DNA of 64,000 bases from Escherichia coli. Its GTDB lineage: Bacteria; Pseudomonadota; Gammaproteobacteria; Enterobacterales; Enterobacteriaceae. Every line of letters starts with the position of its first letter. Positions within the stretch are counted from its first letter, which is position 1. Shown in pieces: positions 6,001 through 9,000 of the stretch. The position numbers were made by a program. The stretch lies in the NCBI RefSeq assembly GCF_036507355.1, contig NZ_AP027877.1. One strand, given 5' to 3'.

Positions 6001-9000
6001 TAAATTCGCCGATACTGAGCAAAATGCTCTATCTTTCCTGTTTATCGATGTTTTCTCATAAGAAAGAACTGATCCCCTTACTTTTCAATAGCATCAGTAC
6101 TGTTTCAGGAAAAGTTGAACGCCTTATTAGCTTTGATATCGCTAAACGTTGGTATCTGCGCGATATCGCGGAAAGAATGTATACCAGCGAGAGTCTAATC
6201 AAAAAAAAGTTGCAGGATGAAAATACCTGTTTCAGTAAAATATTACTCGCCTCCAGGATGTCGATGGCCAGACGATTACTCGAGTTACGTCAAATTCCTC
6301 TGCATACTATTGCGGAAAAATGTGGCTATAGCAGTACATCGTACTTTATAAACACATTTCGACAATATTATGGTGTAACGCCACATCAGTTTGCGCAACA
6401 TTCGCCAGGTACCTTTTCCTGACATATTTCGCATTTGAATATTGGTCAGGATCTCACACCTGCTTCATGTGAAACTCTTCCCTGATGATTTCTGCCGGGC
6501 TACCGGCTAGTTCTCTTTCGCAGTTTGCCAGGCGGTATAGGTATTTTCAGGAGGAAAAGACTCGGCATGTTTGGGATTATTAAGCTGACAATTCATACGA
6601 TTACGGGAATGTGGGTCAGTATTGTGCTGTTCAAATTGATGACGAATGGCTGGAGTGGTTTCTACTTTCAGTGCTGTGTACTAAGCCTGGTATTCCTGAC
6701 GGTTAGCTGGTTGTTGAGTGGTGAATGGTTAGCAGGAAAGAGTAAGGCTGAACCTTCACGTTCAACCTTACTCTCATTTACACGTTACGCTTTTTTAAAG
6801 CGGGCAAAGAGATGTTCCACTACAACGAAAAAGACCGGAACAAAGTAAATTGCCAGCACTGTTGCGGCAAACATCCCGCCCATCACGCCGGTACCTACCG
6901 CGTTTTGCGCGCCAGAACCGGCACCATGACTGATAACCAGCGGCAGCACGCCGAGAATAAAGGCCAGAGAGGTCATCAGGATTGGGCGTAAACGCATCCG
7001 CGCCGCTTCGATGATTGCCTCTATCGGCGTTTTCCCTTCTTTCTGCATCATCTCAACGGCAAATTCGACAATCAGGATGGCGTTTTTGGCGGAAAGCCCG
7101 ATGGTGGTCAGCAAACCAACCTGGAAGTAGACGTCATTACTTAAGCCGCGCAGATCGGTGGCCAGTAATGCGCCAACGACGCCTAACGGAACAACCAACA
7201 TCACCGAGAACGGAATTGACCAGCTCTCATAAAGTGCGGCGAGGGCGAGGAACACCACGACCAGTGAAATGGCATATAGCGCGGGAGCCTGATTTGAGGA
7301 TAACGCTTCCTGATACGACAGTCCGGTCCATGAGTAGCCGACGCCTGCCGGAAGTTTAGCGACCAGGTCTGCCATAAATTTCATTGCGTCACCGGTACTT
7401 TTCCCGGCCGCCGCTTCACCTAAAATCTCCATTGACGGGATGCCGTTGTAGCGTTCCAGTCGCGGTGAACCATAGGTCCATTCGGTAGACGAGTAGGCAG
7501 AAAGCGGTGCCATCGTGCCAGAGGCGTTGCGTACATACCATTGATTGATGTTATCCGGCAACATACGGAACGGCGTGCCTGCCTGGACATACACTTTTTT
7601 CACCCGCCCCTGGTTGAGGAAGTCGTTCACGTAGCTGCTGCCGAAGGCGGTGGAAATTGTCTGGTTGATATCAGACAGCTCCACGCCCATTGCCTCAGCT
7701 TTCGCGGCGTTGACGTTCACTTTGAACATCGGCGTATCTTCCAGGCCGTTCGGGCGTACCCCGGTGACCTGATTCGGTGATTGCGCTGCCAGTGATAACA
7801 GCTCGTTTCGTGCCTGGGTTAGTTTTTCGTGCCCCAGGTTACCGTTGTCCAGCAGTTCCATATCAAAACCTGACGCGGTACCCAGTTCAGCCACCGCGGG
7901 TAAGTTGAACGGGAAGACGACGGCTTTATTGATACTGCTTAGCGCAATCATTGCCCGCTGAATGATCGCGGTAACCGAGTTTTCCTCACCGACACGTTCA
8001 GACCACGGCTTGAGACTGATAAACGCCAGGCCGTTGTTTTGCCCCTGGCCGCTGAAGCCAAAGCCGCCAACGGTAAACACCGACTGGACATTATCTTTCT
8101 CTTTAGTCAGATAATAATCCGTCACCTGTTGCAGCACTTTCGTGGTGTTAACCATGGTGGCACCGGAAGGTAACTGCGCGGTGGTCATAAATACCCCCTG
8201 ATCCTCTTCTGGTAAGAAAGAGGTCGGCGTGCGCAGGAACAGCACCGCCATCCCGGCGCAAATCAGCAGGTAGACCACCATGTAGCGACCGGTACAACGC
8301 AACAGCGAGCGGGTGCTATCGGTATAGTGCTGAGTTGATTTTTCAAACAGCGTGTTGAAGCGTGCGAACAGGGCGTTAGGTTTGTGACCGCCTTCCGGCG
8401 CGGCTTTCAGAATGGTGGCGCACAGGGCAGGGGTCAGGCTCATTGCCACAAATACTGAAAGCAGCATGGAGGAGATCAGCGTGATGGAAAACTGGCGGTA
8501 GATCTCCCCGGTTGCACCGCTCATAAAGGCCATCGGCATAAACACTGCGGAAAGAACAACGGCAATACCGACCAGCGCACGTTGGATCTGCCCCATCGAT
8601 TTATGCGTCGCTTCCTTCGGTGGTAGCTTATCTTCCGCAATGACACGCTCGACGTTCTCCACCACCACGATGGCGTCATCCACCAGTAACCCTATCGCCA
8701 GCACCATCCCGAACATAGTCAACGTGTTGATGGTGAAACCGACCGCCGACAAGATCGCAAACGTCCCGAGAATAACCACCGGTACGGCAATCGTCGGGAT
8801 GATTGTGGCACGGAAATTCTGCAAAAACAGATACATGACCAGGAAGACGAGGATGATAGCCTCAACCAGTGTTTTGAAAACTTCCTGAATAGAAATTTCG
8901 ATAAACGGCGTGGTGTCGTAAGGATAAACCGTCTTCAGACTTGCCGGGAAATAGGCTGATAAGCGGTTCAGTTCCTCTTTGACTGCCCGCGAGGTATCCA

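What the first reader, a model, noticed from the sequence alone, without database searches (positions are those of the whole stretch)
6567..6848. Candidate small two-helix membrane protein in the convergent gadW-mdtF gap
The 362-bp gap between the converging gadW and mdtF ends is long for a pure terminator region. It contains an ATG (6567) preceded by AGGAGG about 12 nt upstream, opening a 93-aa ORF with two hydrophobic stretches (IIKLTIHTITGMWVSIVLF and FYFQCCVLSLVFLTVSWLL). Its 3' end overlaps the mdtF stop region on the other strand, which argues against it, so confidence is low.
Basis: seen in the sequence. Interest (0 to 1): 0.25.

Follow-up and report, generated by a model that had tools for sequence, protein, structure and literature searches.

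The report
Conserved acid-induced small membrane protein gene
The open reading frame between gadW and mdtF is a real, selectively maintained gene for a small two-helix membrane protein, already published in 2023 as the acid-induced "sORF15" of E. coli; it is still missing from reference annotations and its function is unknown.

Summary
ATG 6567 to TAA 6848 on the + strand encodes 93 aa. AGGAGG lies at 6549-6554, there are two hydrophobic segments, and the last 64 nt overlap the 3' end of mdtF.

It is not new. It maps exactly to "sORF15" (NC_000913.3:3663464-3663745, minus strand) of Schumacher et al. 2023, mSystems (PMC10746267). That paper reports ribosome footprints induced about 18-fold at pH 4.4 and a FLAG-tagged product expressed from a plasmid.

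The frame is open, with no indels, in 17 Escherichia sequences from E. coli to E. albertii. One (Escherichia sp. E2593) has an extra T at the mdtF stop that changes the tail. The dN/dS-like ratio is about 0.14, against 0.95 and 1.35 in the two control frames, and is similar to that of gadW. Every other frame carries 3-9 stops.

An exhaustive profile search found relatives only in Escherichia. One is a 54-aa version in E. fergusonii at the same gadW/mdtF position that lacks the basic tail. The conserved core is therefore the two-helix hairpin with a GWSGF-x-F-x-CC motif.

In E. coli the tail reads through the mdtF terminator hairpin. Its conservation there largely reflects constraint on mdtF.

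RefSeq K-12 and PGAP do not annotate the gene. Its function is unknown; a role as a membrane-protein modulator is inference only.

The parts
6549..6554 (+). Shine-Dalgarno AGGAGG, 12 nt upstream of the ATG. It lies in a conserved block, TATTTTCAGGAGGAAAAGAC.
   Evidence: Sequence. The block 6541-6569 has 10 inferred changes over 29 sites, against 113 over 118 sites in the upstream spacer.
6567..6848 (+). 93-aa ORF, identical to published sORF15 (K-12 3663464-3663745, minus strand). The window allele differs from K-12 at one residue, R65 versus C65.
   Evidence: Intact as 93 aa in 16 of 17 Escherichia sequences; the exception, E2593, has an extra T at the mdtF stop giving a 96-aa product. dN/dS-like ratio about 0.14-0.16.
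6573..6632 (+). Predicted transmembrane helix 1 (residues ~3-22)
   Evidence: Hydropathy. AF2 predicts a helix at residues 2-27. DeepTMHMM prediction is reported in PMC10746267.
6645..6677 (+). Most conserved motif, NGWSGFYFQCC (residues 27-37), spanning the loop and the start of TM2. G28, W29, S30, G31, F32, F34, C36 and C37 are invariant, including in E. fergusonii.
   Evidence: Alignment A2 and BLASTP.
6660..6719 (+). Predicted transmembrane helix 2 (residues ~32-51)
   Evidence: Hydropathy maximum of 1.95 at residues 32-50. AF2 predicts a helix at residues 31-57.
6738..6775 (.). A 16-bp hairpin inside codons 58-70, interpreted as the mdtF terminator. It is perfect on the mdtF-sense strand (-27.3 kcal/mol, z = -5.6). 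On the ORF strand it is weaker and carries a C.A mismatch (-18.7 kcal/mol).
   Evidence: more stable on the minus strand in all 13 alleles; 98.6% of cells paired, with one compensatory pair.
6785..6848 (+). The last 21 codons plus the stop of the ORF, antisense to the last 21 codons of mdtF. Third codon positions of the two frames coincide, and the tail is basic ([19 protein letters not shown]).
   Evidence: All 11 inferred changes fall on the shared third positions. The tail is absent from the E. fergusonii homologue.
6423..6566 (+). Spacer between the gadW stop and the ORF. It evolves fast and carries indels. It contains the published candidate sORF14 (6469-6510) and a small conserved hairpin (6493-6508) followed by a T-rich tail.
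5694..6422 (+). gadW, the upstream gene. The ORF is most likely co-transcribed with it.
   Evidence: The paper places sORF15 in the gadW 3' UTR.
6785..9898 (-). mdtF, the convergent RND efflux permease gene.

Best explanation
This is a genuine protein-coding gene, the published but unannotated sORF15. It encodes a small inner-membrane protein whose conserved core is a hairpin of two transmembrane helices joined by a short loop, with the motif GWSGF-x-F-x-CC.

Shown:
- The frame is kept open and indel-free across the genus Escherichia. (One cryptic-clade genome, E2593, has an extra T at the mdtF stop that alters only the overlapping tail.)
- It evolves under purifying selection about as strong as that on gadW.
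- In K-12 it carries ribosome footprints induced about 18-fold at pH 4.4, with its RNA rising in parallel.
- A C-terminally FLAG-tagged full-length product can be made from its own ribosome-binding region on a plasmid.

Inferred:
- It is expressed by read-through from gadW. No sigma-70-like promoter lies in the gap, and a small leaky hairpin lies in the spacer.
- At neutral pH the transcript is ended by Rho in or near the ORF.
- In E. coli and most relatives the reading frame has been extended past the two helices, through the mdtF terminator hairpin and 64 nt into the antisense of mdtF. This adds a basic, probably cytoplasmic tail, giving an N-in/C-in topology by the positive-inside rule.
- Conservation of that tail is largely a by-product of constraint on MdtF and its terminator.

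Most speculative: like other small bacterial membrane proteins (AcrZ, SafA, MgrB), it probably acts by binding and modulating a larger membrane protein of the acid-stress programme. The best candidate by conserved synteny is the neighbouring MdtEF pump. I put that partner at about 0.2.
For: - **Identity with sORF15:** coordinates and sequence match Table S7 of PMC10746267 (my mapping).
- **Translation:** at pH 4.4 versus 7.6, Ribo-seq log2FC is 4.21 (padj 1e-38), RNA log2FC is 4.03 and translation efficiency is unchanged. A FLAG western from pBAD24 used 15 nt of native leader.
- **Selection:** across 8 taxa, variable sites by codon position in 6567-6737 are 34 third, 17 first and 10 second. 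Pairwise dN/dS is 0.05-0.25, against about 0.3-3 in shifted frames. Parsimony counts on 17 sequences give 72 synonymous and 38 nonsynonymous changes, a dN/dS-like ratio of about 0.14 (p = 6e-24), against 0.95 and 1.35 in frames +1 and +2. Control genes: gadW 0.06-0.15, mdtF 0.01-0.02.
- **Indels and stops:** the ORF has none, while the 144-nt spacer upstream has several indels. Only frame +0 is free of stops.
- **Distribution:** the region is present in 5414 of 5426 complete E. coli genomes. The exact protein is seen on at least 1000 contigs, named only "hypothetical".
- **E. fergusonii:** a 54-aa homologue sits between the gadW-like gene and mdtF. It is 49% identical over 41 aa, with pN/pS 0.31 against about 1-1.5 in the other frames.
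- **Helices:** hydropathy; AF2 helices at 2-27, 31-57 and 65-89 at modest confidence.
- **Transcription:** no sigma-70-like promoter in 6300-6950. A Rho termination region on the gadW strand maps to K-12 3663625, which is window 6687.
Against: - RefSeq K-12 and PGAP do not annotate it.
- Earlier start-site profiling at neutral pH did not report it, according to PMC10746267.
- The protein has only been detected from an arabinose-driven plasmid, not from the native locus.
- No phenotype is known.
- The SD-to-ATG spacing of 12 nt is longer than optimal.
- The ORF runs through a stable hairpin, and a Rho-dependent end maps inside it in LB. Under many conditions the full-length mRNA may therefore be rare.
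- Some natural alleles disrupt it: a 76-aa frameshift on 19 contigs, and an IS66 insertion in one O121 strain.
- The family is restricted to one genus and has no Pfam, NCBIfam or PDB relative, so the proposed mode of action rests on analogy only.
- My dN/dS-like estimate uses parsimony on a short alignment with an NJ tree, not a likelihood model.
Confidence: 0.85

Rival explanations
1. The act of translating the ORF matters, not the peptide. Ribosomes on the gadW 3' region would block Rho and melt the terminator hairpin. This would control how far gadW transcription runs into the antisense of mdtF, and so the stability of the two convergent mRNAs, in the way GadY acts on gadX-gadW.
For: - A Rho termination region maps in or near the ORF at neutral pH.
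- The ORF reads through the mdtF terminator hairpin, which is weaker on the ORF strand.
- RNA over the ORF rises 16-fold at pH 4.4.
- The locus already uses an antisense RNA, GadY, at 5338-5451.
Against: - A purely cis role would preserve an open frame but not the amino-acid sequence. Yet the dN/dS-like ratio is about 0.14, and an invariant GWSGF-x-F-x-CC motif survives even where synonymous sites are saturated.
- The E. fergusonii version stops before the terminator and does not overlap mdtF, so read-through into mdtF is not a conserved property.
- This role could still coexist with a protein function in E. coli.
Confidence: 0.08
2. This is pervasive, non-functional translation of a chance ORF in a long 3' UTR, and the nucleotide conservation comes from RNA or terminator elements and from mdtF.
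For: - About 0.8% of shuffles give an ORF this long.
- The neighbouring published candidate sORF14 is not conserved as a frame, which shows that footprints alone are weak evidence.
- The last third of the ORF is indeed constrained by the hairpin and by mdtF.
- Reference pipelines do not call the ORF.
Against: - In the 171 nt that overlap neither the hairpin nor mdtF, substitutions concentrate on third codon positions, and the dN/dS-like ratio is 0.14 (p = 6e-24).
- The same sites read in the other two frames give about 1.
- There are no indels and no stops in 17 sequences spanning dS of about 1.
- A protein-level homologue exists in E. fergusonii at 54% nucleotide identity.
Confidence: 0.04
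3. It is a type I toxin-like small hydrophobic peptide whose mRNA is controlled by the overlapping antisense transcript, here the 3' end of mdtF.
For: It is small and hydrophobic, and its 3' end overlaps a convergent transcript.
Against: - Arabinose-induced expression for 1 h gave a detectable product, and the paper reports no toxicity.
- It has two helices and 93 aa, whereas typical type I toxins have one helix and fewer than 60 aa (general knowledge).
- The overlap lies at the 3' end, not over the ribosome-binding site.
- It is a single copy with strict synteny, not a mobile or multicopy element.
- It has no match in PADLOC.
Confidence: 0.03

Closest known systems
sORF15 of E. coli K-12 (Schumacher, Gelhausen, Kion-Crosby, Barquist, Backofen, Jung 2023, mSystems 8:e01037-23; PMC10746267)
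   Same: It is the same locus. K-12 coordinates 3663464-3663745 (minus strand) equal window 6567-6848. The length (93 aa), start codon and SD are the same, and the sequence differs at one residue (R65 in the window, C65 in K-12).
   Different: - The paper offered only BLAST hits as conservation evidence and listed >80%-identical 'homologues' in Vibrio, Klebsiella, Salmonella and Enterococcus.
- My searches find the family only in Escherichia/Shigella-labelled records. Near-identical hits in unrelated genera are most likely mislabelled or contaminated records (inference).
- New here: the dN/dS evidence, the 54-aa E. fergusonii form, the wobble-phase overlap with mdtF, the strand-asymmetric terminator hairpin, and the link to a published Rho termination region.
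AcrZ (49-aa accessory protein of the AcrB RND permease)
   Same: Both are small inner-membrane proteins of E. coli. MdtF, next to the ORF, is an RND permease of the AcrB type (Pfam ACR_tran). AcrZ is the precedent for a small protein that tunes such a pump (annotation).
   Different: - No sequence relationship: hhalign probability is 0.08%.
- AcrZ has one helix, while this protein has two plus a basic tail.
- acrZ is unlinked to acrAB, whereas this gene is convergent with mdtF.
- No binding data exist.
SafA (B1500) and MgrB, small membrane proteins that connect or modulate two-component sensors in the acid/Mg2+ stress network
   Same: These are small membrane proteins encoded next to, and co-expressed with, a stress regulator (safA-ydeO). 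They act by binding a larger membrane protein. This comes from general knowledge and was not tested here.
   Different: Neither was compared with the ORF at the sequence level here, and the ORF family has no Pfam or NCBIfam match at all. No evidence links the ORF to PhoQ or EvgS.
E. fergusonii CAQ90533.1 / UniProt B7LQH3 ('hypothetical protein; putative exported protein', 54 aa)
   Same: It is a homologue at the syntenic position between the gadW-like gene and mdtF. It has the same two hydrophobic helices and the GWSGF-x-F-x-CC motif.
   Different: - It uses a GTG start 19 nt after the gadW-like stop and has no AGGAGG.
- It ends before the mdtF terminator, so it has no basic tail and no overlap with mdtF.
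- It is only 42-49% identical.

Membership tests
sORF15 (published E. coli acid-induced small ORF) | Same genomic position, strand, start and stop as NC_000913.3:3663464-3663745 (minus strand) | tested here: met
   The mapping K-12 = 3670312 minus window coordinate, derived from the gadW and mdtF ends, gives 3663745 and 3663464. Table S7 lists these coordinates.
sORF15 (published E. coli acid-induced small ORF) | Same amino-acid sequence | tested here: met
   92 of 93 residues are identical to the K-12 product (R65C), and the start context matches.
Genuine protein-coding gene (general criteria) | Purifying selection on the reading frame, specific to that frame | tested here: met
   dN/dS-like ratio about 0.14 in frame 0, against 0.95 and 1.35 in the shifted frames. 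Third-position excess of variable sites. No indels.
Genuine protein-coding gene (general criteria) | Evidence of translation in vivo | not testable with these tools
   Taken from the literature only: Ribo-seq induction at pH 4.4 and a plasmid FLAG western. A native-locus protein has not been shown.
Small inner-membrane protein (two-TM hairpin) | Two hydrophobic segments of about 19-20 residues, long enough to span the membrane, conserved in homologues | tested here: met
   Kyte-Doolittle 19-residue peaks are 1.7 and 1.95 in E. coli and 2.3 and 2.5 in E. fergusonii. AF2 predicts helices.
Small inner-membrane protein (two-TM hairpin) | Demonstrated membrane localisation and topology | not testable with these tools
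   Prediction only, here and in PMC10746267.
AcrZ-like RND pump accessory protein | Sequence or profile similarity to AcrZ | tested here: not met
   hhalign probability 0.08%. No Pfam or NCBIfam hit.
AcrZ-like RND pump accessory protein | Physical binding to the RND permease and an effect on its substrate profile | not testable with these tools
   Only conserved synteny with mdtF in all seven Escherichia lineages examined supports this.
Type I toxin | Antisense RNA overlapping the toxin's translation-initiation region or 5' UTR, and toxicity on expression | tested here: not met
   The overlap with the convergent transcript is at the 3' end only. No toxicity was reported on induction. No PADLOC hit.

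The most novel reading that the evidence does not exclude
The protein is a dedicated small-subunit partner of a large acid-island membrane protein. The leading candidate is the MdtEF-TolC pump, as an AcrZ-like modulator switched on only at severe acid stress. In E. coli, translating it through the mdtF terminator would additionally couple gadW and mdtF expression through overlapping convergent transcripts.
Probability: 0.2. Interest if true: 0.6.

Novelty: already known. Interest (0 to 1): 0.3.

Why it matters
The E. coli acid fitness island is among the most studied stress loci, yet reference annotations (RefSeq K-12, PGAP) still show this 362-bp gap as empty. The published case for sORF15 rested on ribosome footprints, a plasmid western and BLAST hits.

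The frame-specific purifying selection shown here is genus-wide and comparable to that on gadW. It is independent evidence that the peptide itself is functional, and it justifies annotating and naming the gene.

It also matters in practice. Deletions or insertions at gadW, or at the 3' end of mdtF, may disturb a third gene. The conserved two-helix core and the CC motif indicate which residues to mutate first.

If the protein modulates MdtEF or another acid-island membrane protein, it would add a component to acid resistance and efflux control in enteric E. coli, including EHEC strains such as the one this window matches.

Tried and rejected
- **Rfam:** a scan of 4000-7500 at E <= 1 found only GadY (5338-5451, minus strand) and nothing in the gap. 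A described sRNA or riboswitch there is unsupported.
- **Promoter scan:** no sigma-70-like promoter in 6300-6950. An independent promoter is not supported, although in vitro sigma-32 and sigma-E RNA polymerase SELEX peaks have been reported for this spacer.
- **Family libraries:** Pfam, NCBIfam, PADLOC and PDB sequence searches gave no hits.
- **Exhaustive HMM search:** 1.84 billion representatives yielded only Escherichia copies or fragments plus the E. fergusonii form, so no wider family exists.
- **AcrZ homology:** rejected.
- **Structure:** the AF2 model has low confidence (pLDDT 63, pTM 0.28), so I ran no fold search because the matches would be meaningless.
- **Term-seq:** the curated 3'-end table of Adams et al. 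has no entry in the gap. Only the coarse Rho-region table does.
- **Rend-seq:** the annotation paper has no supplements held.
- **Literature:** I found no follow-up paper on sORF15.
- **sORF14 as a second gene:** rejected as a conserved coding frame.
- **P0028:** this variant appeared highly divergent but looks like C-to-T converted DNA, so I excluded it.
- **First parsimony script:** it used a Fitch rule unsuited to multifurcations. I replaced it with Sankoff counts and the conclusions were unchanged.
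Full report
**What is in the sequence.** The window carries the E. coli acid fitness island in reverse orientation relative to K-12.
- gadX ends at 5326 (+), and GadY lies at 5338-5451 (-) with an Rfam score of 150 bits.
- gadW is at 5694-6422 (+) and mdtF at 6785-9898 (-).
- The gadW-mdtF gap is 362 bp.
- ATG 6567 opens a 93-codon frame ending at TAA 6846-6848. AGGAGG lies at 6549-6554, 12 nt before the ATG.
- The last 64 nt overlap the 3' end of mdtF on the other strand.
- Only 39 of 5000 shuffles of 6423-6848 gave an ATG-ORF this long.

**It is already published.** Window and K-12 coordinates are related by K-12 = 3670312 minus window coordinate. The ORF therefore maps to NC_000913.3 3663464-3663745 on the minus strand. 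Table S7 of Schumacher et al. 2023 (mSystems 8:e01037-23, PMC10746267) lists exactly this interval as "sORF15", 93 aa. The sequence is the same apart from C65 in K-12 versus R65 here.

The authors found it by inspecting the gadW 3' UTR in Ribo-seq data. They report:
- constant footprint coverage and a Shine-Dalgarno sequence;
- two transmembrane helices predicted by DeepTMHMM, and a third helix predicted by ColabFold;
- a FLAG-tagged product from pBAD24 carrying 15 nt of native leader;
- in Table S8, for pH 4.4 versus 7.6, Ribo-seq log2FC 4.21 (padj 1.1e-38), RNA log2FC 4.03 and unchanged translation efficiency; at pH 5.8 it is not induced.

I found no later paper on it. It is not annotated in RefSeq K-12. 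It is also absent from the PGAP annotation of the 30 E. coli genomes listed, in which the region is present in 5414 of 5426 complete genomes. Many GenBank and UniProt records carry the identical protein as "hypothetical" or "uncharacterized"; it is seen on at least 1000 contigs.

A scan of one genome per prokaryotic species with GadW returned syntenic loci from two species-level lineages labelled E. coli, two cryptic-clade Escherichia sp., E. whittamii and E. albertii. I added E. marmotae and Escherichia sp. E2593 through their predicted proteins. I also added K-12 and seven E. coli genomes taken at even steps down the similarity ranking.
- The gap is 83-95% identical in the other species.
- In the alignment, the 144-nt spacer upstream of the ORF has several indels and about 0.96 inferred changes per site. 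The ORF has no indel at all up to the mdtF stop; the only one, an extra T in E2593, lies in the overlap with mdtF.
- The block around the SD and ATG (6541-6569) is conserved, at 0.34 changes per site.
- All 17 sequences keep frame +0 open, and 16 share the same stop. Each of the other five frames has 3-9 stops.
- In 6567-6737, which overlaps neither the hairpin nor mdtF, variable sites among 8 taxa fall 34 on third, 17 on first and 10 on second codon positions.
- Pairwise Nei-Gojobori dN/dS against the window is 0.05-0.25, with dS reaching about 1 for E. albertii and E. whittamii. The same nucleotides read in frames +1 and +2 give about 0.3-3.
- Sankoff parsimony on an NJ tree of the 17 sequences gives 72 synonymous and 38 nonsynonymous changes. 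The dN/dS-like ratio is about 0.14 (binomial p = 6e-24), against 0.95 and 1.35 in the shifted frames. Extending to 6783 gives about 0.16.
- For comparison, gadW gives 0.06-0.15 and the last 300 codons of mdtF give 0.01-0.02 on the same loci. The dN of the small ORF is lower than that of gadW in the distant species.
- Within sampled E. coli, nearly all polymorphisms in the ORF are synonymous.

**Extent of the family and its core.** A word-indexed search of 5.8 billion proteins found only Escherichia-named or unnamed near-identical copies and fragments. A profile search that read all 1.84 billion representatives gave 19 hits, all of them the same ORF or fragments of it, with one exception.

The exception is P0050, a 54-aa protein of E. 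fergusonii ATCC 35469 (CAQ90533.1, "putative exported protein"). It lies at the syntenic position: gadW-like gene (62% identity), then the small ORF, then convergent mdtF, mdtE, gadE and hdeD.
- It is 49% identical over 41 residues.
- Nucleotide identity is only 54%. pS is about 0.98 and pN 0.31, giving pN/pS 0.31, against about 1-1.5 in the other frames.
- It starts at a GTG 19 nt after the gadW-like stop.
- It ends just before a canonical GC-rich hairpin followed by a T-run (TTTTTGTT), which is the mdtF terminator.

The ancestral, functionally constrained unit is therefore the two-helix hairpin. Its invariant residues include G28, W29, S30, G31, F32, F34, C36 and C37.

The paper's list of >80%-identical homologues in Vibrio, Klebsiella, Salmonella and Enterococcus is not supported by these searches. 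Most likely it reflects mislabelled or contaminated records (inference).

**The C-terminal third and the overlap.** Codons 58-70 run through a 16-bp hairpin at 6738-6775.
- On the mdtF-sense strand the stem is perfect, using G.U pairs: -27.3 kcal/mol, z = -5.6.
- On the ORF strand it carries a C.A mismatch: -18.7 kcal/mol.
- This asymmetry holds in all 13 distinct alleles.
- Across alleles, 98.6% of cells stay paired, with one compensatory U-A to C-G change. Covariation is not statistically significant.

I read it as the mdtF terminator, which is weaker in the gadW/ORF direction.

In the 64-nt overlap, the third codon positions of the two genes coincide ((6785 - 6567) mod 3 = 2). All 11 inferred changes fall on these shared wobble sites. 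The invariance of the basic tail is therefore largely explained by the very strong constraint on MdtF.

Natural variation fits a dispensable tail:
- A 76-aa allele, caused by loss of one A in GGAAAG, keeps both helices and occurs on 19 contigs.
- E2593 has a 7-T run that changes both the tail and the MdtF end.
- One O121 strain has an IS66 element inside the ORF.

The tail has 11 Lys/Arg against one Glu after residue 57. By the positive-inside rule this puts both termini in the cytoplasm (inference).

**Expression.**
- No sigma-70-like promoter was found in 6300-6950.
- The spacer holds a small hairpin (TGCCGG-loop-CCGGCA, 6493-6508) followed by a T-rich tail. The stem is kept while the loop varies by indels in 9 of 10 alleles. 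This could be a leaky gadW terminator or a 3'-end stabiliser.
- Adams et al. 2021 (eLife, PMC7815308) list a Rho termination region on this strand. Its peak is at K-12 3663625, which is window 6687, classed "orphan", with Rho score 2.57 in LB. The measurement windows are 800 nt, so the position is coarse. Their curated 3'-end table has no entry in the gap.
- With the parallel RNA and footprint induction at pH 4.4, the simplest model is co-transcription with gadW. At neutral pH, Rho would end the poorly translated downstream RNA. At severe acid stress, there would be more transcript and more translation. This model is inferred, not shown.
- Genomic SELEX peaks for sigma-32 and sigma-E holoenzyme in this spacer (PMC5493296) leave room for a stress promoter.

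**Function.** Nothing is known about function. The family has no match in Pfam, NCBIfam, PADLOC or PDB. AF2 gives three helices at modest confidence (pLDDT 63), and there is no relationship to AcrZ.

By analogy with other small bacterial membrane proteins, I commit to a modulator of a larger membrane protein of the severe-acid programme. The ORF has kept its position between gadW and mdtF in all seven lineages examined. That includes E. fergusonii, where gadX and gadA are not adjacent to it. This makes MdtEF the leading candidate, at about 0.2. GadC, proposed by the authors, is an alternative.

A cis role for translation, through Rho or terminator read-through into the mdtF antisense, may coexist in E. 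coli. It cannot be the conserved function, because the E. fergusonii form stops before the terminator.

**Verdict.** It is already in the literature, so novelty is low. The new elements are:
- frame-specific purifying selection across the genus;
- definition of the conserved core, and of the tail as a lineage-specific extension constrained by mdtF;
- the strand-asymmetric terminator;
- the correction of the claimed taxonomic range.

Noticed in passing
window 6469-6510 (+): The second published candidate in this gap, sORF14 (GTG start, 13 aa), is not conserved as a reading frame. In other Escherichia species the product would be 6-33 aa, with frameshifts and a lost stop. This argues against a conserved peptide.
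   Followed up: yes
window 6493-6508 (+) and the T-rich tail to about 6522: A small hairpin, TGCCGG-loop-CCGGCA followed by AGTTCTCTTTCGC, keeps its stem while the loop varies by indels across species. Half of it is deleted in Escherichia sp. MOD1-EC7003 (L004). It may be a leaky gadW terminator or a 3'-end stabiliser. On its own it does not stand out from shuffles (z = -1.5).
   Followed up: partly
window ~6687 (K-12 3663625, minus strand): A published bicyclomycin-sensitive (Rho) termination region on the gadW strand peaks inside the ORF in LB (Adams et al. 2021, Supplementary file 2). Resolution is coarse because the windows are 800 nt.
   Followed up: partly
L013 (NZ_CP119441.1, E. coli O121), insertion point equivalent to about window 6607: An IS66-family element (tnpA, tnpB, tnpC) is inserted inside the ORF in this strain. 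It is a natural knockout that could be compared with relatives.
   Followed up: no
L012 3001-3291 (Escherichia sp. E2593), equivalent to window 6791-6796: The run of T at the mdtF stop has 7 T instead of 6. MdtF is then called as 1043 aa and the small ORF as 96 aa with a different tail. This could be a real allele or a homopolymer sequencing error. In this genome GadW matches in two pieces, 62% identity over residues 1-193 and 90% over residues 170-242, which suggests a divergent N-terminal part or a frameshift.
   Followed up: no
window ~6735-6740 (GGAAAG); proteins P0032 and P0034: A 76-aa allele arises from loss of one A. It keeps both helices and changes the tail to ...[20 protein letters not shown]. 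It is seen on 19 contigs, including complete genomes.
   Followed up: partly
protein P0028 (Logan assembly): This variant has many T-to-I/M, A-to-V, P-to-L/F and R-to-C/W changes, a pattern of wholesale C-to-T conversion. It looks like bisulfite-treated or deaminated DNA rather than a real allele, so I excluded it.
   Followed up: no
L021 1-12165 (E. fergusonii CU928158.2): The gadW-like gene, mdtF, mdtE, gadE and hdeD are syntenic, but gadX and gadA are not next to gadW. An AraC-family gene and a histidine-phosphatase (His_Phos_2) gene lie there instead. GadW is only 62% identical to the E. coli protein, which is unusually divergent for these two species.
   Followed up: no
window 6423-6784 (mdtF/gadW spacer): Genomic SELEX (PMC5493296) lists in vitro binding of sigma-32 and sigma-E RNA polymerase holoenzymes in this convergent spacer, at reported coordinate 3661646. 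If that is the older K-12 numbering, which I assumed rather than checked, it corresponds to about window 6689. No sigma-70-like promoter was found by the scan.
   Followed up: no
window 5338-5451 (-): The GadY sRNA lies between gadX and gadW (Rfam RF00122, 150 bits), as expected for this locus.
   Followed up: yes
L010 2890-3105 (-) (E. marmotae): A gene caller placed a 71-aa ORF on the opposite strand, overlapping the start of the small ORF, in E. marmotae only. In the window, no minus-strand ORF of at least 30 aa lies between 6434 and mdtF.
   Followed up: partly
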